From IMG/VR virus record IMGVR_UViG_3300028833_000066: a stretch of DNA of 64,000 nucleotides. The stretch is one strand, 5' to 3'. This DNA is from a virus. Lineage: Duplodnaviria; Caudoviricetes. Below the pieces are notes generated by a model. The model made no database searches, was not told where the DNA came from, and saw nothing but the letters and a program-made list of their open reading frames with translations. Positions 2,490 through 60,163 of this stretch are shown piece after piece (the stretch's first letter is position 1; every line of letters starts with the position of its first letter). A program made the translations under genes and the position numbers.

Positions 2490-2622
2490 ATGTACATTCC
2501 TTTCTGGTTTAGAGTTTTCCTTCTCTTGATTACAATTAGATTATACCATAAATTTTAAGAATGTCAAGTGTTTTTTTGAAAAATGTGCCGGCCAAAGAGT
2601 TAGATAAATCTAACTCTTTTTA

Positions 2623-2904
2623 TTATAGCAATGCGGCAATAGCATTATCTACCGCTTCTTTATATCTTTCACCCAGACGAGCCGCTACAGCCTTGATAAG
2701 TTTGAGCGAAGTTGCGGGGTCGCTGAGAAAAGTTTCAATGGCATAGTCATCGCTATAATATACATGAAGATCTTCATGAAGATTACGCAAGAATTTACTG
2801 TCCCACGGGTTATAAATATCATTCTGTTCAAGCAAGTTCTCAACAATAGTGTCAATGTCGTCAGGCGTGATGGTCAGGGTGACAGTCTTGGTGATATTTT
2901 CCAT
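2623..2904 (-). CDS. Hypothetical early protein
   Basis: Promoter at about 2978, GAAAGGA RBS. Confidence 0.75.
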   Translation of the reverse strand: MENITKTVTLTITPDDIDTIVENLLEQNDIYNPWDSKFLRNLHEDLHVYYSDDYAIETFLSDPATSLKLIKAVAARLGERYKEAVDNAIAALL

Positions 2905-3077
2905 TGTTTTGTCCTTTCTGGTGTTAAGGATTTTCCTTTCCTTTTTACAAGTAAATTATACCACAGATTAGAAAAAAGTCAAGAGTTTTTTGAGTTAGCG
3001 GCAACTAAATTTTATGCCGGCCAAGTTAGTCATAACTAACTTGCGGCAAAAAGAAAAGAGGGCCGAAGCCCTCTGCC

Positions 3078-3413
3078 TCACGCGAGGCGGTAGGTGTTGG
3101 GCTTGCCCTCAATCTTGACGATGCGATCAGCCCAGTTGTGGGTCAGACCGTACTGGATCTTACCCTTGGTGAAACCCTCAGGCAGATTAGCCTCAACCTG
3201 CTCGAAGATCTCCGCCACGGTCAGCGGGGCAGTCGTGAGGGCGAAGACACCGCGGACGATGTCCCACGCGGTCTCATAGCCCGCGTCCTTCTCGGCCTTG
3301 GCGACTGCACCCTTATTCAGTTCGGCTTCGAGTTCGGTCTTGATTTCGTCAATATTGGTCACGGTCTCACCATTGAGGAAGGAAACGAGAGACTTGATGG
3401 TGGCAATACGCAT
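3078..3413 (-). CDS. Winged-helix-like protein, family A (copy 1 of 4)
   Basis: LTVAEIFE...FTKGKIQYGLTHNW...KIEGKPNTYR, shared with 7520, 10609 and 12895. Confidence 0.75.
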   Translation of the reverse strand: MRIATIKSLVSFLNGETVTNIDEIKTELEAELNKGAVAKAEKDAGYETAWDIVRGVFALTTAPLTVAEIFEQVEANLPEGFTKGKIQYGLTHNWADRIVKIEGKPNTYRLA

Positions 3414-3631
3414 AGTAGATACCCTTTCTGGTTTTTGAGACTGTCCTTGTCTTTTCATTTATATTCTACCACATTTCGTGGAGAATGTCAAGCATTTTTT
3501 AGGAAGTTGCGGAAGGTTTAACAGTCCCAATTACGCATTACCGCCCAACTAATGCCACCGCTTACATCCTTATTATAGCACAGGATTTGCTGTTTGTCAA
3601 GGGCTTTTTGAAGATTTTTTGTTTCAAGGTT

Positions 3632-3692
3632 TGCTACTTGTGGGCTCGAACTACTCTTACGCCATTTCCAATTACCAACCGAAGGAGTAGCA
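3632..3692 (-). ncRNA. Degenerate tRNA-like element in a non-coding transcript
   Basis: Acceptor-like TGCTACT/AGTAGCA stem and GTAG-TTCGAGC-CCAC T-arm, downstream of a promoter at about 3804. Confidence 0.4.
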
Positions 3693-3883
3693 GAGAGAGG
3701 AGAACCAAGTTGAACGGTATTGTAGGTTTGACTGGGCGTCACCATCACCAGATGGAGCACTCTCTCCCTTGGAACAATTATATTATATCATAATTTGCCA
3801 GAAAGTCAATTACAAAAGTGTTAAGATTTTATTACAATTATATTAACAGGCCGGCTCAGTTAGATACAACTAACATAAGAGCA

Positions 3884-3991
3884 AAGAGAAGGGGAGGAAT
3901 CGAACCTCCCTTGGTTTACCACAACCTACGGCGAATCGAACGCCCTACGACACCTTTCGGGTATCTGCTGTTACCAGTGAGCCACTTCTCT
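3884..3991 (-). ncRNA. tRNA-like RNA (GAA anticodon-like loop) with an extra T-loop and D-loop-like hairpin pair
   Basis: AGAGAAG/CTTCTCT acceptor, U8, GCT-CACTGGTAAC-AGC D-arm, GATAC-CCGAAAG-GTGTC arm, extra GGCG-TTCGATT-CGCC and GGTT-GTGGTA-AACC hairpins, GGGAGG-TTCGATT-CCTCCC T-arm. No encoded CCA. Confidence 0.65.
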
Positions 3992-4238
3992 TTTAATTGT
4001 GAAGAATTTTGGCTGTCCCTCGGGTGCCTTGTATCATTCTTCACAGTTCCGTATAGGGACTTGCAAGTGAGGTTGTCTGTGAGGATGCCTTACCCCGAAT
4101 GACTTATCAGGGGCCTCGTTCCGTTTTCCTCTCCCCTTGGAACAATTACATTATACCGCAATTTTGAGAATTGTCAAGTGGTTTTGAAAAAAAAGATTGC
4201 TAAGTTTTTAACAACCCGTGACCGGCAAAAAAGTTAGA

Positions 4239-4454
4239 TTACTCTAACTCTTCTTCTTCCTCTTTATAATATTTTTGATTGTCCTCAAAGCACTCTTTTG
4301 CGAAAAAGCAAATACCATGATGGTTGAGATAACAATGGGCACAATGATGATTATTTTGGATACATTTAGCAAGGTATTCATTTAATACTTTTATTGTTAA
4401 TTCCTCTTTATATATGGCTTCGATTTGTCGCTGTAACTGTTTTTCATTCATCAT
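4239..4454 (-). CDS. Cys/His-rich small protein
   Basis: CIQNNHHCAHCYLNHHGIC; overlaps the upstream gene. The track's longer start is a shadow extension. Confidence 0.65.
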   Translation of the reverse strand: MMNEKQLQRQIEAIYKEELTIKVLNEYLAKCIQNNHHCAHCYLNHHGICFFAKECFEDNQKYYKEEEEELE

Positions 4455-4728
4455 CACTATTATCCTCCATCGTATCTTCATATCCGTATACATCGCCTGC
4501 CCACCGAATTTCATCTTCTGCAAAATCCGTAGGGGCATCGGGGTCAACATCATCTGCGGCGAGCCAATCTTCCCAACTCTCCCAGAATGCACCCCAGTCA
4601 TCGCAATCTTCCATCGGGTCATCAATGTGACAAATACCCATCTGGTCGCAGTAGGGGCAATCGCCATAGGCATTCACGGGGCAGTAGGTATAGTCGCCAT
4701 TGTAGGTTCCCTTTTTCACATCACGCAT
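4444..4728 (-). CDS. Highly acidic Cys-rich protein (DNA-mimic candidate)
   Basis: CPVNAYGDCPYC motif followed by a D/E- and W-rich tail; GGAGG RBS. Confidence 0.75.
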   Translation of the reverse strand: MRDVKKGTYNGDYTYCPVNAYGDCPYCDQMGICHIDDPMEDCDDWGAFWESWEDWLAADDVDPDAPTDFAEDEIRWAGDVYGYEDTMEDNSDDE

Positions 4729-4903
4729 TTTTCTTTTCCTCCATTTTCATTTTATGATTTCTCCAAATTTTAGCATAGAAGACTACTTTTTCAGGATATT
4801 GTATTTTTGAAAAACCTTCACAAACCTGATAGAAAGTATCAACATAGATAGCATGGCAATGCTTACAGAGAAACTTGATGATCGTATTTATAATGGTGGT
4901 CAT
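4721..4903 (-). CDS. Hypothetical protein
   Basis: AAGGAGG RBS; translationally coupled to its neighbours. Confidence 0.6.
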   Translation of the reverse strand: MTTIINTIIKFLCKHCHAIYVDTFYQVCEGFSKIQYPEKVVFYAKIWRNHKMKMEEKKNA

Positions 4904-5094
4904 TGTTCTTCCTCCTTTACGCTCTCATTATAGCATTGTTTATACCATTTGTCAAGAGTTTTTCTTGCGGTTTTACGAAGTTTTTTCTTTAAGCGACGAC
5001 GTGCGGGAGTGCTTTGATCTATCCATTGACGACACCCTGTATTCAAATCCCAAGCTGCAAGTTCATCATGATATTTATGCTCGTTCTTACGCAT
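4900..5094 (-). CDS. Small basic protein
   Basis: RRRLKKKLRK; AAGGAGG RBS; carries an internal promoter at about 4930-4955. Confidence 0.65.
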   Translation of the reverse strand: MRKNEHKYHDELAAWDLNTGCRQWIDQSTPARRRLKKKLRKTARKTLDKWYKQCYNESVKEEEQ

Positions 5095-5168
5095 TTATTA
5101 TCCCTCCTTACATGCCTATTATAGCATACATAGGAAAGTTAGTCAAGCCTAATTTTTTCGCCGGCACC

Positions 5169-5444
5169 TTAACGGCTATAATTAAGGATGTCACGACCTT
5201 CCTTAAAGTCATAGATAGAAATCATAGTGCAGTCTTTGTCATATAGATAGATAGCGGCGGCTTGAAGTAAAGCAATAATATCGTCACCGCATTCACTCTT
5301 ACCGTTCTGGCCGTATACCGTAATCATTTGATACCGATGCTTCTTATCACGAAGCTGCTGACGCAAAGAATCATTTTCAAGACGTAACTGGTCAAGTTCC
5401 TCTTCCAATTCGCTAATACGCAGGCTCATTTCAAATTCATCCAT
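5169..5444 (-). CDS. Hypothetical protein with N-terminal coiled coil
   Basis: Promoter at about 5504, AAGGAGG RBS. Confidence 0.75.
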   Translation of the reverse strand: MDEFEMSLRISELEEELDQLRLENDSLRQQLRDKKHRYQMITVYGQNGKSECGDDIIALLQAAAIYLYDKDCTMISIYDFKEGRDILNYSR

Positions 5445-5542
5445 CGTGATTCCTCCTTAGTTATTTCTTCTTACAGTTTGATTATATCATAAAGTAGACA
5501 GTTAGTCAAGACTAATTTTCTTGCCGGCGGCAAATGGGAACA

Positions 5543-5746
5543 TTAGTTCCCATTCGCACGACTGACAGAAAGGTCTACCAGTTCATAAGAACGCTCAATA
5601 TCAAACCGACAGCCGCATTTATCACAACGACATGACCACCACTGTGCGGCACCATCCAGTCCGCTAAAATCATCACCGTAATCTTCAATGGTATAATCTT
5701 CCGAACCACACACGGGGCAAGCCTCTTTGTCAAAATTTTTACGCAT
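5543..5746 (-). CDS. Zn-ribbon protein
   Basis: CPVCG...CRCDKCGC. Likely start MRKNF overlaps the end of the upstream gene. Confidence 0.75.
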   Translation of the reverse strand: MRKNFDKEACPVCGSEDYTIEDYGDDFSGLDGAAQWWSCRCDKCGCRFDIERSYELVDLSVSRANGN

Positions 5747-6131
5747 TTTCCTGTGCCTCCTTTTCCTTTTCCTTGGCTTCACGCTTAGCCTTGTCGCGGG
5801 CGATCTTCTCTTCCTTTGCCTTGACCTTTTCGGCTTTCTCAGCCTGCTTGGTGTTGTAAGCATTGATTTCGTTCTGCATCAGTTCGCGGGCAGTCATGTC
5901 TTCGCGTTCCTCTGCTACGATGACGCCTACGCGGCAATAGCGTTCGACGCCATTTTTATCGGTCAGAATGCAACCCCACTGTCTATCATTGATTCTGCGA
6001 TACTCTGCATTATCTGTCCAAAAGGCATTGGGTTTAACACCATTAACAGAAGCAGAGTCCAGGTCAAAAATTTCAGTGAAGATACGGTCACGGAGGTCAG
6101 CATCAACAACAGTCTTCGCAATCTTCGCCAT
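5739..6131 (-). CDS. Family B protein with K/E/A-rich tail (paralogue of 12245)
   Basis: KT...LR...F start and EKAEK.K..EEK tail are shared with 12245. Confidence 0.75.
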   Translation of the reverse strand: MAKIAKTVVDADLRDRIFTEIFDLDSASVNGVKPNAFWTDNAEYRRINDRQWGCILTDKNGVERYCRVGVIVAEEREDMTARELMQNEINAYNTKQAEKAEKVKAKEEKIARDKAKREAKEKEKEAQENA

Positions 6132-33770: not shown

Positions 33771-33794
33771 GGCGATAAAGGAGAGGTGAAATAT

Positions 33795-36700
33795 ATGGCG
33801 AATAATAGTTAGACTGGCGTGGTCATTGATGTTACTGCACGGATAAAAGGATATGAGGCTGATTTAAATAAGTTTAAAGCGGCAGTATAGAAAGTAGATC
33901 CTGGCAGTTCAATGGGTAAATCATTAATCAAAATGATTGATGATTATGAACGCCGCATTAATGCTATTGGGAAAAATGTATAGCCAAGATTTTTTTCAGA
34001 TAAGTAGATAGATAACTTTTTTGAAAAATTAGAAAATGTTGATAAATTAGCTGTTAATATTGGTAATAATTTAGCTAATATAAAAGTAGGAGATTTAAAT
34101 TTCTCTACAATGGAGGGCAATATATAGACAGTTATTAAGTCTATATAGGAAGCAAATGCTTAGTTAGATTTATTATCAAAAACAAATTTATAGAATATTC
34201 TTAAAGATGCTCCAGAACTCGCGGATACATTAAGTAAATTAGGTATTAATATTGATACTGCTAATTTTAAAGATGTTGAACGTATATTAACAAATGGTAT
34301 GGCTAAAGCTACTGCTTAGGCTGATGAATATAAAAATAAGATTGCAGAAGCAGAAAGTACTTTAGAGCATCTTGGAAAATAGCAAGAAGAAAGATAGAAA
34401 AATGCTCCTGATTTTCTAATAGATGATAAAGCTTATACAAAACAATTAGAAAAAATTTCGTCTATTAAAATGCCAGAAAATGTTTTTAATCCAGAAAGAG
34501 CTAAAGAGTTAATTAATTAGTTTAATAATAATTTAGCTGTGGCTTTAAAAAATTCTAGTAAAGATGGACATGTAAATGAAGCATTAAAGAGTACAGTTGA
34601 AAATTTATAGAAATAGATTACTGAAGCTTTTTCTGAAAAAAACTTTAATCCTGAGTAGTTTAGAGAAAGATTTCAACAAATTTTTGATGTTATTAGAAAT
34701 ACTAAAGGTCTAACTAAGTCTGGCGTCTTAGGAGAAGGATTTAATAGAAATACTTCTATTCGTTAGATATTAGAATAGTTTTTTGATACAAATGCTATAA
34801 ATGATGCTAAAGAAAAAGCAATGAATTTAGCAACAGAATTAAGCTAGTATTTATCTCCTGAAATGTTTATGCAAATTGGAGAGAAAATTGAGAATGGCGA
34901 TTTTGGTAAAATTGGAGAAATTATTGCTAAAGGATTAAAAGCAGCACGAGAAGCATTTGAAAAAGAAGGAAAACAAATAGAAACAAGTAAGCAAAAGACA
35001 GAACAAACACTTATTGAAAGTAAGAAAAAATTAGAAGTAGTAGAGAGTAAAAGAGCTGGCATAACCACTGCAAGCTAGCAATATGCAAGTGTTATGGAAA
35101 GTTTTCGTAACTAGATTAAATAGTTACAAGATAGAATTGCTGCTTTGGAAAAAGAACGTGATGAATAGGCTAAAGGAACGCATGACGAGGTAACTTCTGC
35201 TGGAGCTAGTGGACTTGAGCATGCTCAAGATAATTTTTAGACTGCATCTTCTGCAGCAGAAAATTATCACAAAGAATTAAATAAAATTGCTTCTGCTGAA
35301 TAGGCTTTAGGAAGCTTATAGAGTCTTTTAACTCGTTGGTTTAGTCTTTATGGCGCCATTAGAATGGTTCGTCAAGCAATTAAATCAATGGTTGCAGATA
35401 TTACTTAGTTAGATCATACAATTAATCAAATTTCTATTGTTACTAATATGAGTATGGATGAACTATGGAATTAGATTCCATAGTATACTGCAATGGCTAA
35501 ATAGTATGGTGTAGCAATTTCTGGTGTATATGAAGTTTCACAATTGTATTATCAATAGGGTTTATAGACAGTAGAAGTAACTGGACTAACGGCAGAAACA
35601 TTAAAATTAGCTAAAATTTCTGGATTAGATTATAGTACTGCTACTAACTATATGACAAATGCAGTGCGTTCATTTAAGATGGAATTAAGTGATGCAAATG
35701 TAGTTACCGATGCTTATGCAGCATTGGCGGCGGCATCTGCTTCTAGCGTAGAAGAATTAGCAACTGCTATGAGTAAAACAGCATCTTCAGCACAGGCTGT
35801 AGGTTCTACAATGCAAGAAACTGCGGCTATGATGGCTGTTATGATTGAAGCTACTCGTGAAGCTCCTGAGAATATTGGTTCTGCTATGAAGTCAATCATT
35901 TCTCGTTATGGTGAAATGAAAGCTGATCCAACGGCAATGGTCGATTCTGAAGGACAAGAAATGAGTTTGAATAAGGTTGATAAAGCCTTATAGTCTGTTG
36001 GTATTTCATTACAAGATGAACAAGGACAATTTAGATCATTCACTGAAGTTATTAATGAATTAGCCGGTGTATGGGATACTTTAAGTAATAATACACAACG
36101 TTATATTGCTACTGTTATGGCTGGTAATAGATAGCAGTCTCGTTTCTTAGCATTAGTTAGTAGCGGCGAGCGTCTATAGCAATTAACTGAAATAGCAAAT
36201 GATTCAGAAGGAACTGGACAATTATAGACTTTAAAAACATTAGATAGTATTGAAAGTAAGGCATAGCAAGCTAAAACAGCTATGCAAGAAATTTATAATT
36301 CTTAGGGATTGCAGGATATAATTAAAGGTTGGTATGATTTTGAAGCGGCTATAGGTAAATTTTATGCACGTATGAGCCAAGTTAGTAGTTTTAATTTTGC
36401 TGCGAATATTATATTGCAATTTACTTCAATTGCAACTGCTCTGTCTTCAATTTATAGAGTTATAAGAGCAGTTGTAATAAATCATTCTAGATAGGCATAG
36501 GTATAGATGACCACTGACGCTTTAGCAGAGGCTGAAAAACGAAAGGCTGGTGCAACTGATGAAGCAAATTAGAATATAGCAGAGGCATAGCGTGCTGCTA
36601 CAGGATATGGATAGGCATAGCGATAGAAAAGTACTAGCTTTTTTCTTGTGAAAGGTAGCAGTGCTGATGGAAGAAAGCTTAAAACAGGTTGGGGCTGGGG

Positions 36701-39700
36701 AAATTCTAAAGGCGCAGCAATTACAAGAACAGTAGGTGCTCTTGCAGGAGCTGGATTATCAATTGCAGGCACCGCTGTTAGTGCAAACGCGGCGAAAATG
36801 AGTGAAGATTCATAGGATGAACGAAATAAAAAAGCTTCATCAATTAGAACTGGTAGTACTTTAAGTGGAATAGGCACAGGACTTTCTATGGGCTCAGCAT
36901 TCGGTCCTTATGGGATGGCAGCTGGTGCTATTATCGGTGGATTAGTTGGATTTGCGACTTCTATAAGTAATTCTGCAGAAACTATTTTTGAAAGTACTGT
37001 CGAACGTTTAAATAAATTAAAGACAAAATATGAAGAAGCCAATAATAAAGCATTAGAGTCTAAAAGTGAATTAAATGATTTAAAGAAATTAAAATAGTCA
37101 TATGATGATTTGAAAAAGAGTCGTAATACTAATAATGAATCAATGTTAAAATATCAGGAATTATGTAATCAAATTGCATAGACACATTCCGAATTAGTTG
37201 AAGGATATACTTCTGAAGGTAATGCAATAATAAATATGACTACTGCTTATGATACATTATATGAATCTAAGCGTAGAATGTATTTATTAGATGAAAAAGA
37301 AGCTCTCGCCGCAGAATTAGCATTTACTACTGATCCTGGTAGTGTAGCTGAATCTATGAATATTAAAAAAATAGAAGCTCCTGCTTGGAGTGGATCTCTT
37401 TTAGATAGTGCAGAAAGCGATCGTAAATATGTATTAGGATAGGCGTATGAGTCTTTAATAAGAGGGATCGGAGAGGGATATACTGGTTCAGAATTAGCAA
37501 AAATAATGATAGGAAGCACTGCTCATGCATTAAAAGACGCCGTAGGACTAAAGCCAAATGAAGAAATTAATACATAGTATGCTTAGATTTTATTTGGGCA
37601 GGATATGGCGAATGAAATGTTTATTAGAGATGCTAACAATAAGGTAGTCGTTAATGATCAAGCAGCTTGGGAAGCGACAGAATTATTAGCAAAAGAAATT
37701 TAGACTTATGGAATTGAAGTAACTGCAGAAAATATAAAAGCACGAGCTAAAGACAGCAAAATATTTAATTGGGATGCATATTGGGTTGATGAAGATTTTC
37801 TTAGCAATTTTTTTGGTGCATATAATTCAAAATTAGATTCTTAGGAAATTGTTGAAAAACGCACTAATAATTAGATTGAAACTTATATCCGCGATGTTTA
37901 CGCTGATAATGACGAATATTCTGGTATTGAATTATCTATTTATTCAGAACTGTTAAAAAAACAAGCAAAAGATAAAATTGAAAATGAAAATATTGATCCT
38001 TCTATATTATTTAAGTAGATAGCAGATGGAATTTATTATGATACAGATGTATATGGTATCAGTTCTGTATTAGCAGATAGTGCAATTAAAACATTATCTA
38101 AGTCTAAAAAAGCTAATTTAACCGAATTGTGGAATAGTATTTCACAATATAATGAAGAAGAATATCAAATTATTTTAGATACATTAGGGATAGAAGATCA
38201 AGAATTATTGAATCTTATTCAAGAGCATCGTCAAAATATTATTAAGGATATTTATACGCGTTTTAAAGATGCTATGTCAGAAAATGCAATTTTAAATAAA
38301 GACTAGATTAATATTTGGAAAGACGGTTTTACTCCTGAATAGCTTAATAATATTACAGCTGAATATACTGATTTAGAAAATAATGCAGCATTGTCAGCTA
38401 AGGATAAAGTAGATTATTTGAATGCTTGGAATACTTTATATGATAATTTTATAAATACTAATTTTGCTTCAAGTAAATAGAAAGAATAGATTGCTAATAT
38501 TTTAACTTCAACTGATAAAACAAGTTTTTCTGATATTACTAATGCAATCGAAGAACTTTAGAAAATAGGTGCTCCTGAAGCTTTACCAATAATTTAGGAT
38601 TTATCATATATACAAAGTCATTTAAATATTAATATTCCATCAGAAGTAAACACTTATTTTTCTACTTTAAGTGAAAAAATTAAAACATTAGAAAGTACTT
38701 TAAAGACAGCCTTAGATGGTATGAATTTAAATGAAATATTGTCTTAGGCATAGCAATTAGATATAGATTTTACAAATGATAATATTGAGTTTAAAGATGG
38801 TAAATACTATTTTAAAGATTATAATATTGTATTAAAGAGTATTCAAGACTCTATATATAAAGATATTGATTTTATTTTTAAAGGTGCTGATAAGGCTTTA
38901 GAATTATTAAAAAGTAATGGTAATGGATTATTATCACTTAATAGTGATTTTATGTATAATGGCTTTAATTTACAAGAAACGATTAAACATTATGCACCAG
39001 AAATAAGTGAAGGTAATAGTTGGAAAGATATTTTAGGAGCATAGAATGAAGAACTTGGTTAGTCATTAGATTATCTTTAGAATTTTTATGATAATATTAA
39101 AGATAAAAGTGATATTGGATCTTTTTATACCTGGATTAATGATTCTGAAAAAATGTGGAATAGCATTTTTTCTAATGTTGATATAGATGCATAGACTGAT
39201 GCAGTTGCCGCGATGTTTGGTTTACCTAATAAAGATGAGGCGACACAATTACGCGATGATTTAAATACTTTATATGTTGAATATACTAATGCTAAAACAA
39301 AAGAAGGTTTTAATGATTAGGGATTTATTGAATATGCCAAAATAGCATTAGCAAGTTATTCTGAATAGTGGGATTGGATTTAGAATGAAATAGATAAATA
39401 TACTGCGGGAATGTTTATTACTGCAAATAAGTTAGAAGAATGGTGGGATAATAATACATTCTTAAAAGATATAGAAATGGGAGATACCAGAGCCGGTATT
39501 CTAAAAGCTTTACGTTTAGGAGATTTCCAAAGAGTAAAAGAGATGTTAGAAAGTTCTGGTGATGAAGAAATTTATGAAGAATTACTTAAATATGTTGACT
39601 ATTTTTATGAAAATTCTTAGAATTTACTTAAAGAATCTACTTCTCTATTCGCCGCAGCGATTACTGATGGAAAACAGAAAATAAAAATTAATGAATGGAA

Positions 39701-42700
39701 TCGTGATATTTTAACTGGTTTTGCAAAAACTTTGTCAGGAGAAGATATTACAGAAGCAACCGCTGAAGCATATTTAGATTTAACAGAAGCTAGTGAAGAA
39801 GAGCTACAAAAATTTTTAGAAAGAGTACAGTCTTCTAATTTAAAAGGAAAAGAACGTATAGATACTATTGTAGCAGTTTAGAAAGCTATTAGTGAAAGAA
39901 GTCTTGCCAATGTTTTAAATAATGTTGTGGATAATTATGAATCTTTAACTTATGAAGTTGTTGTTTCTTTAGCAAAAGGTTTTAATACCACTATTGAAGC
40001 TTTAGAAGAAGCGGGGAATATTACTTATGATATTGCTCTTGGCACTTATAAAGTTAATGCTGAATGGTTACGTAGTTAGATTACTAATAAAGATCCATTA
40101 AAATACTAGAAGCAATTAGCTAAATTAGATGAACATACTCAAGAATTGTCATTAACTAATATAGTTGGAGATATAATAAAAAATTATTAGTCAATTACCG
40201 CAGAAATAATGGCAAGGTTAGGAGAATAGACTGGACAGAACTATGAAGCATTAGCAGAAACTTTTAATATTGAAAAAAATGATGACGGTACATTTAAAGC
40301 TTCATTAAAAGAATTACAAAATTTAATTAAATTTAGTTATGATGCTATAAGAAAAGAAGTACCTCTATCTATTTAGAAAAAATTAAATGAACTTTATGAT
40401 AATATTATTTCAGAAGTTACTAATCTTCCAGGATCTTTTACTAATGGTTTTACTAAAACAACTGATATGTAGAGATATGTAGATATGCTTAATGATAGTG
40501 GCTTATTTAATACGGTTTTTACCATGTTTGGTGAAAATGGAATATTTAAATGGTCAGAAAGTTTAAATGCTTATATATATTCTACTACTGGTTTATTAGC
40601 ATAGGTTAGCTATTTTTATGAAAATTTGAAAAATATGTCTGAAGATCAAAAAATTGCGGCTTAGTAGCTATTATAGAATAGTGTAAAAACCTTTGCTGAA
40701 AATGTAGATATTATTGAATATTTATCTTCGGATAGAACTGAATTAGATTGGGAAAAGTTAAATACTGCTTATGATAGTTATATAGAATATATTGGAGCTT
40801 TAAATACAGCAATTAATGATTAGATTAATGATTTAAAAGATGAAATAACGAATGTTGATTATTATGCTAAAGTTGAAAATAAACGTATTAATGTCGCAGA
40901 TAATTTACAAAAAATACAACAATTAGAGTCACAATTAATTAATATTCCTAATTATACAGCTGAATAGTTAAAAACGTTAATAGAAGATGGTAATACAGCG
41001 GCAGTATTATTAGTTTCAAATTTATATAAAACTGCGGGTAAAAATTTATCTCTTGCTGACATGAAAGCGGTTTATCGTTCCGGCATAACTCATCTTACTG
41101 AATCAGTTTCTGAATAGCTTACTGCTACTGTTAATGATTTAGTTGATGAATAGACTTATAATATATTAAAAAATATTGAAGGATATTCATTTGATAAGAC
41201 TTTAGCCGATGAGGGCATTTATCTTATTACTTAGATGGGCAAGGTCGCCGATGCGTATAAGGCATATTATGAAAAATTAATTAATTCTGGAGAAGCTACA
41301 TTAAAAGAAATTAATGAAGCTGCTGTTAAAGTTTTAGAAAATAGTGATCAATGGGGTCGTGGAGAACAGGCTGCGATTGATATACTATCTAAAGCTACTG
41401 GCATTACTTATTAGGAACTTGCTGAATTCTTTACATCTATAGGATGGGAATTTAGTGAAGCTACTATGGAGACTCTTAAAGAAGCGGGTATATTGAAAGC
41501 TATAGGTGGCAATAAAATTGCTATTACTAATTGGAAAGAGTTTGCAAAAATAGCTGGATATGATTTTGGATCATCTGAATATGTTGCTGGATTGAGTGCT
41601 TATAATGATGCTTTAATTTAGATGAATGAAGCGACTAAAAATGCTGTTGATAATGAACTTAAAAATTTAATAGAAATTAAACCTGGAAAATAGTTAAATT
41701 TAACATATCTTTTAAGTAATATTATTAATGAAGAAAAAATAAAAAATGATTTATATGAACGGTATTCATCTTTTAGCGAAGAAGCAATTGAAGCTATGGC
41801 TGATAATACTAAAAATAAAGCTTTTAAGTTATTAGAAGAAGAATTATTAAAATATGGAGCATATTTACAAGACGGTATATTAAATATTACCGACAATGCT
41901 AATATTTATGGTATAATTTAGACTATTACTATCACTGCTTAGCAATATGAAAGTATTTTGCCAGAACAGTTAGCTGAATTGCAAGATGCATTAGTATCTA
42001 TTTTAAGCAATTATACAGATTTAATTAAAAAAGGTATTTCTGGTAGTTTATCTAATGTAGATAAATTAAATTTAGCCGAGTTTGCTAAATCTTTTGGTTT
42101 TAAAGGTACATTATAGTTTATGCCTACTTCTGAAGGGGCATAGCTAACTGAACAATCATTATATTAGATTTATAAAACAGTACAAAATGTAAATGCTTTA
42201 GCGGCAAAAACTATATTTGATGAATGGGCTAAGAATATTTAGAGTGCTAATAGTGAAATGAAAACTATGGCTGGCGTATTGCAAAAAATACGTGAACTAG
42301 AAAATAGTAAAGTTGAAGCTATAAAAGAACAAGCGGAATTATATAAAGAAATGGCTCGCTATATGCAATTAAATTAGCCTGAATCATATAAAATGTTTGA
42401 GTCGGGTAATGCATATAGTGGAGTACAAGGATTTACTAATTTTATTAGTTAGTTTGGGCCTCTTAATAAAACTTTAAATGAGGCTGGCAAAAATGGATAC
42501 ATGGAATGGACCGATTTTGAAACTTGGGCTCGTGGTATGACCGAGATGGCAAAATCAGTAGGACATGATATAGTATCTTGTGGTATTACATTTGATGAAG
42601 CTGGATAGACATATGCTGATTTAATGGAAAAGGCTTCAATTTCATTTACTGAAGATGGAAAAACAATTGTTGATATTTCTGCTAATAGTGGAATTCAATT

Positions 42701-45700
42701 TGATGTTTCTGCTGCATTAGCTCAATATGGGGATAATGAAGCTGCTATTAAAGAATATGCCTAGAAACAAGTGGATATGCTTGATTCTATTATTGCTGTT
42801 TTAGAAGTTATGGCATAGATGGAAAAACTTGCTGATTTAGATGTTAATGGTAATGAAACTTTAGATTTAAGTGAAGTCTTTAAGGTGAAAGGCGATGTAG
42901 CCACTGATGAGTATAATGAAGATATTCAAAAACTTATGCAAGGAACTCAAGAGGCTGCTGAAAAAGATAAAGAATTAAAAAAAGGTTTAGAAGAATTTTA
43001 GATTGGTAAAACTAATTTATTTGAAATAATTAAAAGTATTGCTGATGGCGGTGAATGGACTGAATTACAGAACCTTCTTGGAAAAGATATAACATAGAAG
43101 GAAGCATTAGCTATTATAGATTGGTTAAGTAAGTCATCATCATTAAATTGGGAAGACCCAATGTCAGCTCTATAGCAACTTTTACAATTATATGCAGATA
43201 ATCAAATAGAAGGATTAGCAGTTAAATTAAATGTTGATGGAATTACATATGTTGTGGATAGTAATGGTATTGCTACTGTAGATATGGATTCTGTAGAAGA
43301 AGCTGCACGTCTTACTGATAAAGAAGTAGATGAAATTTTAAGTGCTCTTACTAAAACTTAGGAAGAAGTTTCTAAAGATCCTATTCAATATACATATTGG
43401 TTACATGAAAAGAAATTAATTGATTTAAAAGATGATGGCACATATGCCATTATGATTAATGGTCAATAGGTTGCTGAATGGAATCCTAAAACAGGCAAGG
43501 AGCCTGATAGTGATTTTATTAGAGCTTAGGCCGCGGTCGGTTTATTAACTAATTTTACTAAAAATAAAACAACAGATGAAATTTAGATTGATGGTAAAGA
43601 TTATTATGTTAATGCTGAAGTTGGAACTAACAATTGGCAATATCAAGTTAGATTAGATAAAGATAATAATATTGAATATACTTCTGGAAATTTAACTGCA
43701 TCATCATTAGATGAACTTTTATAGAAAAAATGGGAACAAGGATGGTCTTTAAGTAAGACTCCTACAGCTAAATCGTTCAAATTTGATCGTGCATGGCAAT
43801 AGGAATTAGGTATAGATGAATTATATAGTGTAGAATTAAATCAATCTAATGTTAATGCGGCAAGTAATAATTTAAGAGAACAATTATATAAATTGTGGAT
43901 AGACGGTTCTGACAAAGCTTTATAGAGTGCTAAAGACAAATTAAAAAAATATGATTTTACAATTTCAGATGATTTTAATTTTAATGATCTTGCAGTTGCT
44001 TTAAATTTCTCTATGGAAAATAAGGAAATTTCTGTTTCATATAAAGATAATGAAGAAACTGCAGAAAAATTAACAATTGTAAAGTTATAGTAGCCTGATG
44101 GCGGAATGGTTGAGGTAGGATATAATGAAGAAGGCAAACCATTGACACTTACTTTATATTAGAATGGAACAGAAGATCCAACCATTGGAGTAAGATATAA
44201 TGAAGATGGTTAGAGTTTAATTATTCAAGATTATCCAAATGGATAGGAGCATAGTATTCCTATTAATTATGGACCAGACGCTGAAAATCCTCCATCAAAT
44301 CTTTTAGAAGTTTTATAGTATTTAAATTCTACCGACCCTAATAAAGGAGATTTAGGAATAAACCTTAATGGGTTATCACCAGAGGTTTTGGCTGCATTAT
44401 CTTATCTAGAAGCAATTTTATCTGGTGATACTAGTAAAACAATAGATGTATCAGCTACTGTTGTTCCTTCTGTTGATGGATTAATTACAGCATTATAGGA
44501 ATTAACTATTGCAATTAATAAAAACACTCCTCCTACTACTATTAATAATAATAGTAGTAATAATAATGCTGATAATACCAATACTGAATTAGAAGATGAA
44601 ATCCCGCTTACTATAGATTTTGATACAATTAATGAAGTTGTTGATCTTGATGATTAGGAAACTCAAGATGCAATTACCGAGGCAGAACGTTAGGCTGCGG
44701 AAGTAGAGCTTAAAAATAAACAAATAGCATTTGAAAAGGAATAGGCATTAAAGAAAAAGTATTAGGAAGTTGTAGATAAAGGTATATTATCATCAGAAAA
44801 TGATGATTTATTAGACTTAATTTAGGATACTGGCGGTAATGTTGGTGAATACGCATAGAACATTTTAAATGAAAAAGATATTATATATAATGGAGTCACA
44901 TGGACTAAATATAATGGTCAATGGATGACTAAAAAATAGGCTCAGGAATTCAAAAATAAAGAGAACACTGATACAAGAAATACTATCGAAGAAAATTAGT
45001 CAACTGTAGAAGATTTACAGGAAGAGCCAAATAATATTAATAAGTTTCCAATTCTATCTTTAGATTTAACTAAAGTTGGTTTAACTGGTCCTATAGGATT
45101 TGAAATGAATAATTCTATCAATAAAATCGCACAAGATGAGGGTTTAGATCCTAATTCTGTAGAAGCTAGAAAAAAATTAGCTGAAAAGATTTTAAAAATA
45201 GATGATTTAAGTAAAATTGATTTAATTCCAGACTCAACCGAAAACGAAAAGGGCACCCAAGTTCCTTATGGTAATCATTTAGAAGATAAATATATAGGTC
45301 ATATGGCCACTTATGATGCTTATACTTTAGCTTAGTATGCTGCTGGTAGAAATTTAAATTATAGTGATGTATTACATACATTATTAACTCAAACTGGATA
45401 TAATTCAGAAGGTATTGGTCTTAATGATGAAATTTTTGAGCCAGAATTAGAATCATGGGATGCTATTTTTAGTAGATGGCTTTTAAAAAATGATGATATT
45501 GATATTAAAGAATAGGCTCAAGAATTTAAAGCTGGTAATTATGCTCCCGATGTTGCTCGGGATATGGTACGACAGTGGTTTGCATCATTAGATACGAATA
45601 CATTGTCTTTTATGAATACGGACCGTACAGTAGAATTTTTTGAAGCTTTAACTGAAGCATTCCCTGATGAGCAGTGGTTTAGTGATACATTAACAGATTT

Positions 45701-48653
45701 AAAATTAATGCAGTCAGCAACTGAAGTTAATATTACTCCATAGAAAGAAGATTTAGATAGTAATATATCTAGTATTACTGAAGTTAAGGATGCTTTATCA
45801 CAATTAGCTGCGGCAAAGACTCCAGAAAGTTAGTTGACAGCATTAATGAATTTACAATCTGCAATTCAAGAATTGTCTCTTGAAAATATAGAAGAAGTAC
45901 CTAAAGTAATTAATACTGCTTTAGCTAATATAGATCCATCCGTCGCGATCTAGGCTCTTGAAAAATTAAATAAAAAATTTATTTCTATTCCTTCAGTTAA
46001 AAATACAACAGTGTATGTTAGATTTGAATCAGCTTCTGAAAATGCAGAAGTAACTGGTAATAGTCAATTAACAATGAGTATGGCTAAAGGTAATGCTTTA
46101 GCTGCGGGTCAAGGAACTCTTATGGGCGAACTTGGTCCAGAAATGGTTGTATCTGGCGGCCGGTATTTCATAGCAGGTCAAAATGGTGCTGAATTTGTTA
46201 ATCTTGATCCTGATGCTATTGTATTTAATCATTTACAAACTCAACGTTTATTAAATAGCGGTCGTGGTGGCCGCGGAGTTCCAATTACTAATGAACGAAA
46301 AGCTACCTCATTTGCTAAAGGTAATGTTTCTGGTCCAGCATTAGCAAGTCCTTCTAATGCTTTATCTACTCTTAAAGCATTACGTAATATGTGGAAGAAC
46401 TTAGCAGAAAATGGATTGTCAGAACTTGCACAGCAAGCTGGAGGTGGCGGAGGCGGCGGCGATAAAAATAATGCCGGCTATATCGCTGATCTTGAACGTT
46501 GGTACACATTACTTCGTTAGATAAGTACTCTTGAAAAAGAAATTACACATCAAGAAACTTTACGTAAAAAATTGGAAGCCGACCGCATCATTGATGGTAG
46601 AGCTTATTATAATAGTCAAAAAGAATCTATTAAATTATTGGAAGATGAAATATCTAAAAAGCATGAGTTAGTAAATCTTCAAAAGAGTTATTATGATGCT
46701 CGTCGTCAAGACTTAAAAGATTCTGAATATTCATAGTTCTTTACTTTTGATGAAAAAGGAACTATGATTTATAACGATGAAGCTATTTTAGGTAAGGGAA
46801 CTAAATATGAATCAGCTGGCGGCTTACGTGGTCTTGCTAAACTTAATGCTCAAAATGCTGATAAATCACCTGTATATACGGCAAAAGAATAGTATGAAAT
46901 GCTAAAAGCTTGGGGCTTTGCCGCAGACTTAAAATATGATTCTTCTGGTAAAGAAATTGATATGTCAAAGGATGAAGGATACGCTAGTGCTGTTCAAGCA
47001 TTCTGGGATAAAGTTGATGGATGGAAGGAAGAATTGGATGATTTGTATGACGGTTTCCAAGATTATTAGAAAGACATACTTGATTTAGAGATTTAGTATA
47101 ATGAACTCTTACAATAGATGGTAGATAATTAGATTTCTCTAGAAAATCGTATAGAAAAAGCTATTGAAGATGCTCGTTAGCGTGAAATTGATAATGCTAA
47201 AGATGAAAAAGATGTTATCCAAGAATCTGCTGAAAAATTCCTTGATGGGTTGAATGATTCACTTGATAAAGAACGTAAAATGTATGAAACTAGTTAGGGT
47301 GATAATGAGCTTAATAGAATGCGTCGTTAGTTAGCAATATTACAGCGTTCTGGCGGTTCTGCTTCATAGATTCGTTCATTACAACAAGATATTGCCGCAC
47401 GAGAATAGGATAGTTATTTTGAAGCTCAATAGAATCAAATTGATGCTATTCAAGCTGCTTCTGATGCTGAAATGGAACGTTTAGATCATTAGATTTCTAT
47501 AATGGAAGAATAGTTAGCTTATGAAAAAGAACATGGTTTATTATGGAATCAAGTTTATGAAGTAATGGCTATGACTCCGGAAGAAATTGAAAACTTTATA
47601 TTAGTAAATTCTAAAGATTTTGAAAGTAAATCAACACTTTAGATAGCGGAAGATTTAAGAACCGTAAAGTCTGAAATTGAACAATGGGTGTCTCGTAGAG
47701 ATGACAGCGAAGATGTTGTTGGAAATGAACCATAGCATAACTGGAATACTTATTATGAAGCAGCTTCTAATCTTTATCATTTAGATGAAGAGAAAGATGC
47801 GGGAATAATTAGTGAAGCTAAATAGGCTTATGAAGCTAAATATGCTGAAACTGGTGATGAAAATTATGCGGCGAGAGCGGCTGATGAAGTATTTGAAAAA
47901 TATAGAGGCCCAAGACCTGGAACATAGGCATTTGATAGTACAGCAAATCCTGCAACATCAAATAATCAATCTGGTGGTAGTAATGGTGCAGGAGTTGGTA
48001 CAAAGGCTACTGGTAATTTAAAAGTACATTATAGATATGGAAATACAGAAATTGCGAGAGTCGATACCTATACTAAATTGCCAGCTGGACAAAAAGTATA
48101 TGGCAGTAATTATGTTAAAAATATTTCTGGTTATGTCTATTCTAAAACTGAAAACGATGGTGCAAAAATTATTGCTGGAAAAACAACTCATTTATTCTTA
48201 ATATATAATAAACCTGTAATTATAACTAATGAATAGCCTAAACAAGAGACAAAAGCTGAATATCTATTAAGAACAAAACAGATAGTAGCTGGTTATTCGT
48301 CTGGCGGTCTTGCTAATTACACTGGTCTCGCAATGGTTCACGGATCAAAGCAAGATCCTGAAGCATTCTTAAATGCTGAAGAAACTCATATGTGGCGTGA
48401 TAAGATACTTAGCGGCAATAGCGGTTCTCTCACTTCAATGCTACTTGATTTCTAGAATATGGTTTCTGGAATGGTTAATTCTGAAAGCTATTCTAGCATT
48501 GGCACTGGTGAAGGAATTAATATTGAAAACGCAGTAGTAAATATGAATGCTACAATATCCAATGACTACGATGCTCGTCGTGCGGCGGACAACGTAATGG
48601 ATGAAATGGTGCGTATTGCACGCAAAACAACCGCACAACAAGCAAGGAGGTAA
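33795..48653 (+). CDS. Giant tape measure protein, about 4,950 aa (TAG=Gln)
   Basis: Ten + strand track fragments (34863 to 48459) share the frame of ATG 33795. TP901-type core at 35.4-36.2 kb (YYQQGL, AMSKTAS, AGNRQQSRF) and a C-terminal GGL..YTG..VHGS..PE motif. Spot-checked, not every codon read. Confidence 0.85.
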
Positions 48654-59850: not shown

Positions 59851-60163
59851 ATTTTTTCTCCATATGTTCAAGACATATTTTTACTTGATTTTTCCATTGC
59901 TCTTCTTTTTCTTTTTTTATTGGATAATTAGAACACTAAGTCCTCCAGCAAGTTTCAAAAGGTGCACCCAACATGCATTCGTTACAACTTTTTCTTACTT
60001 CTATTAAAGGACACCAATCTGGACGTTTATGGTCATTAATAGTGTCACTTAATTCCCAAGCTTTTGCTTCTAAATGCCCATGGCAATAATCGAACTCATC
60101 ATCAATTAATGGGCAAGCATAGCAATCTTTAGGTAATCCTATATTGTATTCAATTCTTATCAT
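59840..60163 (-). CDS. Cys-rich protein (read through TAG at 59936)
   Basis: CYACP...RPDWCPL...CNEC; the extended frame ends overlapping the nrdG start. Confidence 0.65.

What the first reader, a model, noticed from the sequence alone, without database searches (positions are those of the whole stretch)
3884..4140. tRNA-like RNA with a duplicated elbow
A cloverleaf with a GAA-centred 7-nt loop (C33 instead of U33, 6-bp T-stem, no CCA). Its variable region holds an extra TTCGATT T-loop hairpin and a GTGGTA D-loop-like hairpin. It is the 3' part of a structured transcript of about 260 nt from a promoter with a Rex-like box. It is unlikely to be a normal tRNA. It may be a decoy for anticodon nucleases or T-box/RNase P-type elbow binders, or a new ncRNA class.
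Basis: partly seen in the sequence, partly recalled or inferred. Interest (0 to 1): 0.72.

Follow-up and report, generated by a model that had tools for sequence, protein, structure and literature searches.

The report
Phage tRNA-like RNA with two elbows
A rumen phage that reads TAG as an amino acid encodes, on the minus strand, a 111-base RNA built on a phenylalanine-tRNA scaffold with a second T-arm and a second D-like hairpin; it cannot be an ordinary tRNA, and it belongs to a phage-enriched class of double-T-arm tRNA look-alikes that I found in no database or paper I could search.

Summary
On the minus strand, 3993-3883 folds into a five-way junction. It has a 9-bp closing (acceptor) helix, a D arm, an anticodon-type arm (loop CCGAAAG), an extra T-arm hairpin, an extra GUGGUA hairpin and a 6-bp T arm. 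No CCA is encoded.

- **Detection:** ARAGORN and Rfam do not call it. Deleting either extra hairpin in silico makes ARAGORN call tRNA-Phe(GAA).
- **Copies:** four near-identical copies (at least 96%) lie in rumen metagenome contigs with unrelated flanks. Conservation stops exactly at the ends of the closing helix.
- **Anticodon loop:** positions 33 and 34 vary among the copies.
- **Expression hint:** three sheep-rumen RNA libraries hold the element.
- **The 5' 85 nt:** this is a separate, widespread phage ncRNA module that usually lacks the tRNA-like part.
- **Wider class:** about 29 structural "twins" (closing stem, T arm, GG-loop hairpin, T arm) occur in unrelated phage contigs. Thirteen lie inside tRNA arrays and several carry a tetraloop where the anticodon would be. 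None matches Rfam.

My best reading (about 0.4) is a non-decoding tRNA mimic made early in infection that occupies a host tRNA-binding factor. That function is inferred, not shown. The scan had noted this stretch once more on the same genome, but not on other DNA.

The parts
4150..4177 (-). Promoter P1: -35 TTGACA (4177-4172), 16-nt spacer, -10 TATAAT (4155-4150)
   Evidence: 12/12 consensus match. It is followed by the motif TAATTGTTCCAAGGG, which directly follows the -10 box of most of the more than 100 IMG/VR contigs in which it was found.
4197..4214 (-). Rex-like inverted repeat TTGTTAA-AAAC-TTAGCAA upstream of P1
   Evidence: Read from the sequence. It is not present in the upstream sequence shown for the four other copies of the element, so it is probably not part of the unit.
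4056..4143 (-). 5' module 'ncRNA-1': conserved ends (GGGGAGAGGAAAA ... AACCUCACUUGCAAGUCCC) around a variable hairpin
   Evidence: Homologues in about 15 IMG/VR contigs, mostly followed directly by the next promoter. A 92-nt contig from RNA run X6, depth 428, covers 4056-4129 and then runs into Illumina adapter.
3999..4044 (-). Linker hairpin (GUGAAGAAU ... AUUCUUCAC)
   Evidence: Present in the window, L267, L271 and L166. Absent in L268 and L269, where the tRNA-like core follows ncRNA-1 through a different linker.
3883..3993 (-). tRNA-like core: 9-bp closing helix, D arm, anticodon-type arm, extra T arm, extra GG-loop hairpin, 6-bp T arm
   Evidence: Fold z = -3.4. Five copies at least 96% identical, with conservation ending exactly at the helix ends. 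ARAGORN calls tRNA-Phe(GAA) once either extra hairpin is removed in silico.
3949..3965 (-). Anticodon-type arm, loop CCGAAAG (C33, GAA)
   Evidence: The loop reads CCGAAAG in three copies, CCAAAAG in L267 and CUGAAAG in L268. One stem pair is U.G in the window and C-G elsewhere.
3930..3944 (-). Extra T-arm hairpin T1 (GGCG-UUCGAUU-CGCC)
   Evidence: Invariant in five copies. It aligns with the true T arm of phage tRNA-Phe genes in the covariance-model search.
3913..3926 (-). Extra D-loop-like hairpin D2 (GGUU-GUGGUA-AACC)
   Evidence: Invariant in five copies. The equivalent hairpin, with other stem sequences and a UGG loop, is present in the twins: helix 5 is 90% paired, with compensatory changes at all 4 of its pairs.
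3892..3910 (-). T arm T2 (GGGAGG-UUCGAUU-CCUCCC), directly abutting the 3' strand of the closing helix
   Evidence: L267 has G to A at one stem position, model pair 102-112, the pair next to the loop-closing pair.
3854..3882 (-). 3' flanking hairpin containing the AGTTAG-N6-CTAACT-type palindrome; no U tract follows
   Evidence: It is not conserved with the element: the other copies have other palindromes here.
3782..3809 (-). Next promoter P2 (TTGACT-16-TATAAT), which drives two further tRNA-like modules

Best explanation
The element is a non-decoding tRNA mimic derived from a tRNA-Phe(GAA) gene.

Shown:
- It keeps the acceptor helix, U8, the D arm with GG, the anticodon-type arm and the T arm.
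- It carries a second T arm and a second GG-loop hairpin between the anticodon-type arm and the T arm. The RNA therefore offers two T-loop/GG-loop pairs ('elbows') on one closing helix.
- It lies in the early, standard-code region of a TAG-recoded rumen phage, behind a consensus sigma-70-type promoter, as the 3' module after an unrelated conserved ncRNA.

Inferred:
- It is cut out of the precursor by the host tRNA-end enzymes (RNase P at the 5' side, RNase Z-type at the 3' side, since no CCA is encoded).
- It accumulates as a stable RNA of about 110 nt.
- It acts in trans by occupying a host factor that recognises the top half or elbow of tRNA. The most plausible target is a tRNA-targeting defence or tRNA-processing protein.
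- It does not deliver an amino acid to the ribosome.

It is one member of a phage-enriched architectural class (closing stem, T arm, GG-loop hairpin, T arm) found in many unrelated phages, often inside tRNA arrays.
For: Identity and structure:
- The fold and its z-score.
- ARAGORN calls tRNA-Phe(GAA) after in-silico removal of either extra hairpin.
- Model R1's best foreign hits are phage tRNA-Phe genes at 30-36 bits.

Non-decoding features:
- C33 in 4 of 5 copies, and position 34 is G or A.
- A 13-bp acceptor/T stack and a 38-nt variable region; no tRNA model matches.
- In the twins L103/L304, L031/L287 and L317 the anticodon arm is replaced by a short tetraloop or triloop hairpin; L286 has a 6-nt loop.

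A selected unit:
- Five copies are at least 96% identical inside mosaic flanks, with conservation stopping exactly at the ends of the closing helix.

Class-level structure:
- About 29 twins, with every helix different in sequence.
- On the model-fitted alignment 94.5% of cells are paired, against 42-47% when partners are slid.

Phage enrichment:
- The same pattern gives 61 loci in IMG/VR against 6 in 596 Gb of species genomes.

Processing context:
- Thirteen twins lie on the same strand inside tRNA arrays, and 5 of them are within 11 nt of a same-strand tRNA.

A host target rather than a phage partner:
- No neighbouring protein family is shared by more than 4 of 42 twin loci.

Early or anti-defence setting:
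- Eight near-consensus promoters lie in 3 kb.
- A nearby ORF has a weak Lar-like restriction-alleviation hit.
- Further tRNA-like modules follow directly downstream.

Presence in RNA libraries:
- Contig 3561-4085 has depth 28/69/130, against 11/21/22 for the adjacent contig 4081-6000.
Against: - No binding, processing or stability was measured.
- Contig depths in RNA libraries can include DNA and can sum related phages that share the module.
- The five direct copies give no covariation. The class alignment is fitted to my model, and the twins were retrieved with a pattern that already demanded two T-loops and a TGG.
- In this copy the anticodon arm is still tRNA-Phe-like, and L268 even has U33, so decoding is not excluded.
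- L267 has a mismatch in the T2 stem, which could mean decay.
- An RNA without a proper anticodon loop would be a poor decoy for anticodon nucleases, so the target class is open.
Confidence: 0.4

Rival explanations
1. RNA-processing or stability module. The tRNA-like fold serves only as an RNase P/RNase Z cleavage signal that defines the 3' end of the upstream ncRNA-1 and separates it from downstream transcripts, or as a 3' cap against exonucleases. This would resemble the tRNA-like mascRNA at the 3' end of MALAT1.
For: It sits directly 3' of ncRNA-1 with no terminator between them. In L190, L261 and L153 the same slot holds a 93-nt RNA that ARAGORN calls tRNA-Ser. The phage group's cassettes lack classical terminators.
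Against: Most ncRNA-1 copies have no tRNA-like part. Twins inside tRNA arrays are flanked by real tRNAs that already provide cleavage sites. A plain T arm plus acceptor would be enough for that job, so the conserved second T arm and GG hairpin are left unexplained.
Confidence: 0.2
2. A working but odd tRNA-Phe. It is matured, given CCA, charged by host PheRS and used for UUY codons. The extra hairpins would serve as protection or as a recognition add-on.
For: The cloverleaf core has a GAA anticodon and is called tRNA-Phe once trimmed. L268 has U33, and L267 has anticodon AAA; by standard pairing that would read UUU, which should be frequent in the AT-rich late genes (my inference). Other odd phage tRNAs with extra arms were noted elsewhere in this scan.
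Against: C33 is present in 4 of 5 copies. The acceptor/T stack is 13 bp; that length acts as an EF-Tu antideterminant in tRNA-Sec (from my own knowledge). The discriminator is U rather than the A73 of bacterial tRNA-Phe identity (from my own knowledge). The 9-bp closing helix is conserved beyond position 73. The structural twins lack an anticodon loop altogether.
Confidence: 0.1
3. An elbow binder rather than an elbow mimic. The two T-loops interdigitate, as in T-box stem I, RNase P and the L1 stalk, and dock onto the elbow of host tRNAs (or compete with those RNAs). This would sequester or chaperone particular tRNAs.
For: Two T-loops in one RNA are the known tRNA-elbow docking motif (PMC3664808, found). 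Minimal twins (L277, L011, L095, L312) are four-way junctions whose 'D-arm' position is occupied by a T arm.
Against: Both loops here are canonical tRNA-type UUCGAUU loops, each with a GG-loop partner available in cis (D1 and D2). That favours two ordinary elbows. No 3D information is available.
Confidence: 0.1
4. A decaying tRNA-Phe pseudogene or recombination scar with no function of its own.
For: Changes at 33/34 and a mismatch in the T2 stem of L267. There is no covariation among the copies. tRNA arrays are prone to rearrangement.
Against: The 111 nt are kept nearly unchanged while both flanks are swapped. Conservation ends exactly at the helix ends. The same five-way layout recurs with unrelated stem sequences in other phages. 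It sits behind a 12/12 promoter.
Confidence: 0.1
5. The conserved block is the core of a plus-strand protein-coding ORF (3818-4102, 94 aa).
For: One antisense frame is open across the element in all five copies.
Against: All 6 substitutions are non-synonymous in that frame. The flanking parts of the frame are unrelated between copies, and three copies have a stop one codon upstream with no start codon. The whole region is transcribed from minus-strand promoters.
Confidence: 0.01

Closest known systems
Bacterial and phage tRNA-Phe(GAA) (Rfam RF00005)
   Same: 7-bp acceptor, U8, D arm with GG, 5-bp anticodon stem with a GAA-centred 7-nt loop, and a UUCGAUU T-loop. Model R1 aligns it to phage tRNA-Phe genes at 30-36 bits.
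   Different: 38-nt variable region with two hairpins, C33, a 6-bp T stem (13-bp stack), U73 and a closing helix extended to 9 bp. It is not detected by RF00005 or ARAGORN.
Phage T4 species 1 and species 2 RNAs (rnaC, rnaD)
   Same: Small stable phage RNAs encoded in or next to the tRNA cluster. rnaC ends in a canonical T arm plus an acceptor-like stem. Their function is still unknown, as far as I know (annotation and folds).
   Different: rnaC has one T arm and a large unrelated 5' domain. I did not test sequence similarity. T4 is not TAG-recoded.
Bacterial Y RNAs of the YrlA type (PMC4201824)
   Same: Non-decoding tRNA mimics with T and D arms. They are also found in phages, carry tRNA modifications, and at least one is cut by RNase P and receives CCA.
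   Different: In YrlA the arm order is V, T, AS, D inside an Rsr(Ro60)-binding stem, there is one T arm, and a TROVE gene lies next door. Here the order is acceptor, D, AC, T, D, T. None of the ten larger window ORFs scanned had a TROVE hit.
Double T-loop tRNA-elbow docking motif of T-box stem I, RNase P and the L1 stalk (PMC3664808)
   Same: Two T-loops in one RNA, and a link to recognition of the tRNA elbow.
   Different: There the two T-loops interdigitate within one compact module and bind a tRNA. Here they cap two separate tRNA-type arms, each with its own GG-loop partner. There is no T-box or RNase P match in Rfam.
tRNA-Sec (RF01852)
   Same: 13-bp acceptor/T stack and a long extra region. 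It is the only Rfam model that gives any score on the element (20.4 bits).
   Different: The score is far below the cut-off of 47, the anticodon is not UCA, and the split is 7/6 rather than 8/5.

Membership tests
Canonical tRNA (RF00005 / ARAGORN) | Recognised by tRNA covariance or heuristic models | tested here: not met
   ARAGORN finds 0 genes. Rfam shows no tRNA hit even at E up to 10.
Canonical tRNA (RF00005 / ARAGORN) | Cloverleaf core: 7-bp acceptor, U8, D loop with G18 G19, 5-bp anticodon stem with a 7-nt loop, T-loop UUCRAUU | tested here: met
   Read from the sequence. ARAGORN calls tRNA-Phe(GAA) after in-silico removal of either extra hairpin.
Canonical tRNA (RF00005 / ARAGORN) | U33 and a stable anticodon | tested here: not met
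   C33 in 4 of 5 copies. Position 34 is G in four copies and A in one.
Canonical tRNA (RF00005 / ARAGORN) | Variable region of 4-5 nt, or one arm of up to about 24 nt; 12-bp acceptor/T stack | tested here: not met
   38 nt with two hairpins. The stack is 7-bp acceptor plus 6-bp T stem.
Canonical tRNA (RF00005 / ARAGORN) | CCA end and aminoacylation | not testable with these tools
   CCA is not encoded. Whether it is added or the RNA is charged needs experiments.
tRNA-Sec (RF01852) | Score above the gathering cut-off; UCA anticodon | tested here: not met
   20.4 bits against 47; the loop is CCGAAAG.
tmRNA | tRNA-like domain plus tag reading frame, found by ARAGORN | tested here: not met
   (tRNA and tmRNA search): none.
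YrlA-type bacterial Y RNA | Arm order V-T-AS-D inside an Rsr-binding stem; adjacent Ro60/TROVE gene | tested here: not met
   The arm order differs. No TROVE hit in the ten larger ORFs tested. The rest of the genome is not held.
T-box / RNase P / L1-stalk double T-loop module | Two interdigitated T-loops forming a flat docking surface | not testable with these tools
   This needs a 3D structure. No Rfam T-box or RNase P match.
Phage double-T-arm tRNA-like class (defined here) | One closing stem enclosing T arm, hairpin with a UGG-containing loop, and T arm, with the second T arm abutting the 3' strand | tested here: met
   The window element and about 29 twins, among them L103/L304 at 46.4 bits, L286/L301 at 46 bits and L031/L287 at 31 bits.
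Phage double-T-arm tRNA-like class (defined here) | Location in a phage, commonly within a tRNA array | tested here: inconclusive
   The window is phage-like (TAG-recoded late genes), but the element sits in an early promoter-cassette region with no ARAGORN-called tRNA in 64 kb. Thirteen twins are in arrays.

The most novel reading that the evidence does not exclude
The element is one example of a phage-wide, so far undescribed class of 'double-elbow' RNAs: a closing stem around T arm, GG hairpin, T arm. These evolved from tRNAs, lost decoding, and act on the host's tRNA-elbow recognition machinery. They would either act as a bivalent decoy for a tRNA-targeting defence or processing enzyme, or dock onto host tRNA elbows through paired T-loops.
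Probability: 0.3. Interest if true: 0.85.

Novelty: new variant of a known kind. Interest (0 to 1): 0.62.

Why it matters
Phage tRNAs are now seen as counter-measures to host tRNA-cleaving defences. Non-decoding tRNA mimics such as T4 species 1/2 RNAs and the Y RNAs have stayed largely unexplained.

A tRNA-shaped RNA with two elbows, made from a strong early promoter and recurring in many unrelated phages, would be a new kind of RNA mimic in the phage-host conflict. The architecture also escapes standard tRNA and Rfam annotation, or is mis-called tRNA-Ser.

This gives a concrete, testable set of sequences. One can ask which host protein or RNA reads the tRNA elbow during infection. It would also justify a new covariance model for genome annotation.

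Tried and rejected
- **Phage GenBank collection:** blastn of the 1-kb region found no match.
- **Whole genome:** none is held for this window, so the suppressor tRNA for TAG and any partner genes outside the 64 kb could not be sought.
It included tmRNA ends, complete tRNAs followed by a tRNA 3' fragment, a large 'T arm, 4-bp hairpin, UUGGUA, T arm' family next to tRNAs, and the true twins. Only those with a closing stem were kept.
- **TGGTA pattern**: it found no direct homologue in IMG/VR. Direct homologues came only from the metagenome scan.
- **Covariation within the five copies:** none, as they are too similar.
- **Adjacency of twins to tRNA-Phe:** 2 of 13 arrays, which is what chance gives.
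- **Shared neighbouring protein among 42 twin loci:** none beyond generic replication genes.
- **Antisense ORF:** rejected.
- **Literature searches** for two T arms or tRNA-like decoys in phages gave no description of this architecture.
- **RNA-run contigs:** their ends at 4085 and at 3561-3602 coincide with points where related phages diverge, so I do not read them as RNA ends. No loose end with CCA was listed at 3883. This says nothing either way.
- **Run X19** (size-fractionated RNA, small share): it holds a 152-nt contig joining a different ncRNA-1 variant to the first 27 nt of the core (to 3967). This is only a hint of co-transcription.

Full report
**What is there**

The feature lies on the minus strand. 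A consensus promoter sits at 4177-4150: TTGACA, 16 nt, TATAAT, 12 of 12 matches. It is followed by about 260 nt without a credible ORF, and then by the next consensus promoter at 3809-3782.

The 3' 111 nt (3993-3883) form the tRNA-like core. Its arms are (coordinates):
- a 9-bp closing helix (AAAGAGAAG with CUUCUCUUU)
- U8-G9
- a D arm with loop ACUGGUAA
- A26
- a 5-bp stem with loop CCGAAAG
- a hairpin GGCG-UUCGAUU-CGCC (T1)
- a hairpin GGUU-GUGGUA-AACC (D2)
- a 6-bp T arm GGGAGG-UUCGAUU-CCUCCC (T2), which abuts the 3' strand of the closing helix

The unconstrained minimum-free-energy fold gives this five-way junction, with z = -3.4 against shuffles. No CCA is encoded.

**Standard detectors**

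- ARAGORN finds no tRNA or tmRNA in the whole 64 kb.
- Rfam finds nothing at gathering thresholds.
- At E up to 10, the only Rfam match on the element is a sub-threshold tRNA-Sec hit: 20.4 bits against a cut-off of 47.
- When I removed either extra hairpin, or most of the 38-nt insert, in silico, ARAGORN called tRNA-Phe(GAA) in every variant that kept at least four variable-loop bases.
- A covariance model built from the element (R1) finds ordinary phage tRNA-Phe(GAA) genes as its best foreign hits, at 30-36 bits. In those alignments the model's T1 matches their T arm, and D2 plus T2 are deleted.

The scaffold is thus derived from tRNA-Phe. The extra material can be read as D2 plus T2 inserted between the original T arm and the 3' acceptor strand.

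**Genome setting**

The window is phage-like and uses TAG as a sense codon in its late genes. With TAG=Q, a 4955-codon frame (33786-48653) opens with 152 in-frame TAGs, and a block of plus-strand frames from 19452 to 55865 becomes continuous. The region 3-19 kb uses the standard code and is packed with near-consensus promoters on the minus strand; the 3-kb stretch 2500-5500 that I scanned holds eight.

- Most late proteins have no Pfam match; of the ten larger ORFs scanned, only an anaerobic ribonucleotide reductase (60150-62072) and a GIY-YIG domain (58296-59291) matched above Pfam's cut-off.
- One small early ORF has a weak Lar-like restriction-alleviation match.
- The DNA is held by sheep and bovine gut/rumen sequencing runs.

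**Two modules, not one RNA family**

The 5' part (about 4143-4056) has conserved ends (GGGGAGAGGAAAA ... AACCUCACUUGCAAGUCCC) around a variable hairpin. It recurs in about 15 IMG/VR contigs of the same phage group.

- In most of these it is followed directly by an A-rich spacer and the next promoter.
- In L190, L261 and L153 it is followed by a 93-nt RNA that ARAGORN calls tRNA-Ser(UGA).
- Only in the window and four metagenome contigs is it followed by the double-T-arm element.

The Rex-like inverted repeat upstream of P1 exists (4214-4197). It is absent from the upstream sequence shown for the other four copies.

**Direct homologues**

A pattern scan of JGI metagenomes found four copies: L267, L268, L269 and L271.

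- Over the 111 nt they are at least 96% identical to the window. Both flanks are mosaic: different ncRNA-1 variants, the linker hairpin present or absent, and different downstream palindromes and genes.
- Conservation starts and stops exactly at the two ends of the closing helix.
- The six variable columns are: one D-loop base; one anticodon-stem pair (U.G or C-G); positions 33 and 34 (loops CCGAAAG, CCAAAAG, CUGAAAG); one base beside T1; and one T2-stem base in L267.
- There is no compensatory change, so these copies alone give no covariation support.
- An antisense frame is open through the element, but all six substitutions are non-synonymous in it and its flanks are unrelated. It is not coding.

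**Presence in RNA libraries**

Three sheep-gut metatranscriptome runs hold 77-96% of the sampled words. When laid on the window, the contig covering 3561/3602-4085 has word depth 28, 69 and 130 in the three runs. This contig spans the tRNA-like core and the modules downstream. The adjacent contig over the protein genes 4081-6000 has depth 11, 21 and 22.

This fits transcription. It is not proof, because DNA can be present in such libraries and related phages share the module. A 92-nt contig of depth 428 covers 4056-4129 and then runs into Illumina adapter. That points to an abundant short fragment of ncRNA-1. No RNA ends could be read for the tRNA-like core.

**A wider class**

Scanning IMG/VR for two UUCGAUU T-loops 20-45 nt apart returned more than 118 loci. 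Many are trivial: tmRNA ends, or a tRNA followed by a tRNA fragment. A subset has one closing stem that starts right after the second T arm and pairs with sequence upstream of the first. Thirteen of 126 have 9 bp or more.

Model R1 then picked out full-length structural twins:
- L103/L304 at 46.4 bits (E about 1e-9)
- L286/L301 at 46 bits
- L031/L287 and L317 at about 31 bits
- about 25 more

Their layout matches the window element: closing stem, usually a D-like arm, a short hairpin, T arm, hairpin with a UGG loop, T arm. The stem sequences are unrelated and GC content ranges from 35 to 71%. In L103/L304, L031/L287 and L317 the anticodon position is a tetraloop or triloop hairpin. L286 has a 6-nt loop but an encoded ACCA end.

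On the model-fitted alignment 94.5% of cells pair, against 42-47% when partners are slid. The D2 helix is 90% paired with many pair types. Two caveats apply: the alignment is fitted to the model, and the loci were chosen by a pattern that already required the two loops and a TGG.

The distribution points to phages:
- The same pattern gives 61 loci in IMG/VR and only 6 in 596 Gb of species-representative prokaryotic genomes.
- Thirteen twins lie on the same strand inside phage tRNA arrays, and 5 of them are within 11 nt of a same-strand tRNA.
- None is matched by any Rfam family at gathering.
- ARAGORN mis- of 29 as tRNA-Ser.
- No neighbouring protein family is shared by more than 4 of 42 loci.

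**How it most likely works**

Shown: a tRNA-Phe-derived cloverleaf with a second T arm and a second GG hairpin; features that argue against decoding; strict conservation of the whole helix-bounded unit in mosaic contexts; a strong early promoter; recurrence of the architecture in many phages, often among tRNAs.

Inferred: the RNA is excised by RNase P and an RNase Z-type activity, as its neighbours in arrays must be, and it persists as a stable RNA. It then acts as a tRNA mimic that engages a host factor which reads the acceptor/T-arm half or the elbow.

A host target is suggested by the lack of any conserved phage-encoded partner. I rate this reading at 0.4.

The target is open. Anticodon nucleases are less likely for the class as a whole, because many members lack an anticodon loop. 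Enzymes or toxins that read the elbow or acceptor end fit better. So do RNAs that dock the elbow, such as the double T-loop module of T-box leaders, RNase P and the L1 stalk (PMC3664808).

The rivals are a pure processing or stability signal (0.2), a working odd tRNA-Phe (0.1), an elbow-binding RNA (0.1), a decaying pseudogene (0.1) and an antisense ORF (0.01).

**Comparison with known RNAs**

- It works like, and descends from, tRNA-Phe. It fails tRNA membership on U33, variable-region size, stack length and model detection.
- It resembles T4 species 1 RNA (one T arm) and YrlA-type Y RNAs (tRNA mimic with a different arm order, Ro60-linked; PMC4201824) in being a non-decoding tRNA look-alike. 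It differs from both in having two T arms on one closing helix.
- Literature searches found no description of such an RNA.

**Verdict**

I class the element as a new variant of a known kind (phage tRNA-like ncRNA), with a real chance that it marks an unrecognised class. The scan had noted this same stretch once more on the same genome. It had noted other odd phage tRNAs on other genomes, but not this architecture.

Noticed in passing
window 19452-55865 (+), e.g. 33786-48653: The late genes read TAG as a sense codon. With TAG=Q a 4955-codon frame opens with 152 in-frame TAGs, and neighbouring frames of 300-1850 codons become continuous. The early region 3-19 kb uses the standard code. ARAGORN finds no tRNA, hence no suppressor tRNA, in the 64 kb.
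   Followed up: partly
window 4128-4155 and 3760-3787 (-); L119-L237: The sequence TAATTGTTCCAAGGG directly after the -10 box is shared by most of the more than 100 IMG/VR contigs of rumen/gut type in which this 15-mer was found. Before protein genes it continues as a 5' hairpin UGUUCC-AAGG-GGAACA. Before ncRNAs it continues GGGAGAGG. This is a conserved promoter plus initial-transcribed element of a whole phage group.
   Followed up: partly
window 4056-4143 (-): ncRNA-1 is a conserved phage ncRNA of about 85 nt, with fixed ends (GGGGAGAGGAAAA ... AACCUCACUUGCAAGUCCC) and a variable, covarying hairpin. It occurs in about 15 related contigs and has no Rfam match. A sheep-rumen RNA contig of depth 428 covers 4056-4129 and then runs into adapter.
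   Followed up: partly
window 3618-3772 (-); L237:1768-1918; L217:9153-9305: The next transcript holds two more tRNA-like modules without anticodon arms. The first has a closing stem GAGAGAG/CUCUCUC (GAGAGGCG/CGCCUCUC in L217), a GGUG-UGGUGA-CGCC hairpin and a T arm. The second has an acceptor-like stem that covaries (GCUACU, GCGAUU, GCGG), a UUCG hairpin and a T arm.
   Followed up: partly
window 3505-3570 (-); L159, L166, L217: A third short promoter-driven RNA (GCGGUGGCAUUAGUUGGGCGGUAAUGCGUAAUUGGGACUGUUAAACCUUCCGC) has an acceptor-like stem and a D-like hairpin but no T arm. It is conserved in related contigs.
   Followed up: no
L122, L148, L165, L182, L259, L264: Related phages carry an RNA of about 130 nt that ARAGORN does not call. 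It starts GGGGAGCG and ends UGGAGUUCAAUUCUCCC-GCUCUCC-ACCA, i.e. acceptor, T arm and encoded CCA around a large insert that contains CACUUGCAA, the motif also conserved in ncRNA-1.
   Followed up: no
L044, L047, L069, L076, L078, L105, L112, L239, L247, L250, L252: A separate, common phage element sits next to tRNAs: T arm, 4-bp hairpin (CUCG-N5-CGAG), UUGGUA-type loop, second T arm. The order T, hairpin, D recalls YrlA Y RNAs. There is no Rfam hit at gathering.
   Followed up: no
L180, L182, L198, L201, L234; L198: Several contigs of the same phage group carry a lone tRNA-Lys(UUU) in the early region. L198 has a promoter-driven 'minihelix' made of the acceptor and T arm of that tRNA-Lys, ending in CCA.
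   Followed up: no
window 3057-3074 (-): The first strong intrinsic terminator downstream of P1 is at 3074-3057 (AGAGGGC-UUCG-GCCCUCU plus a U run), after the 126-codon ORF 3458-3078. Transcripts from P1 may therefore read through all the small RNA modules.
   Followed up: no
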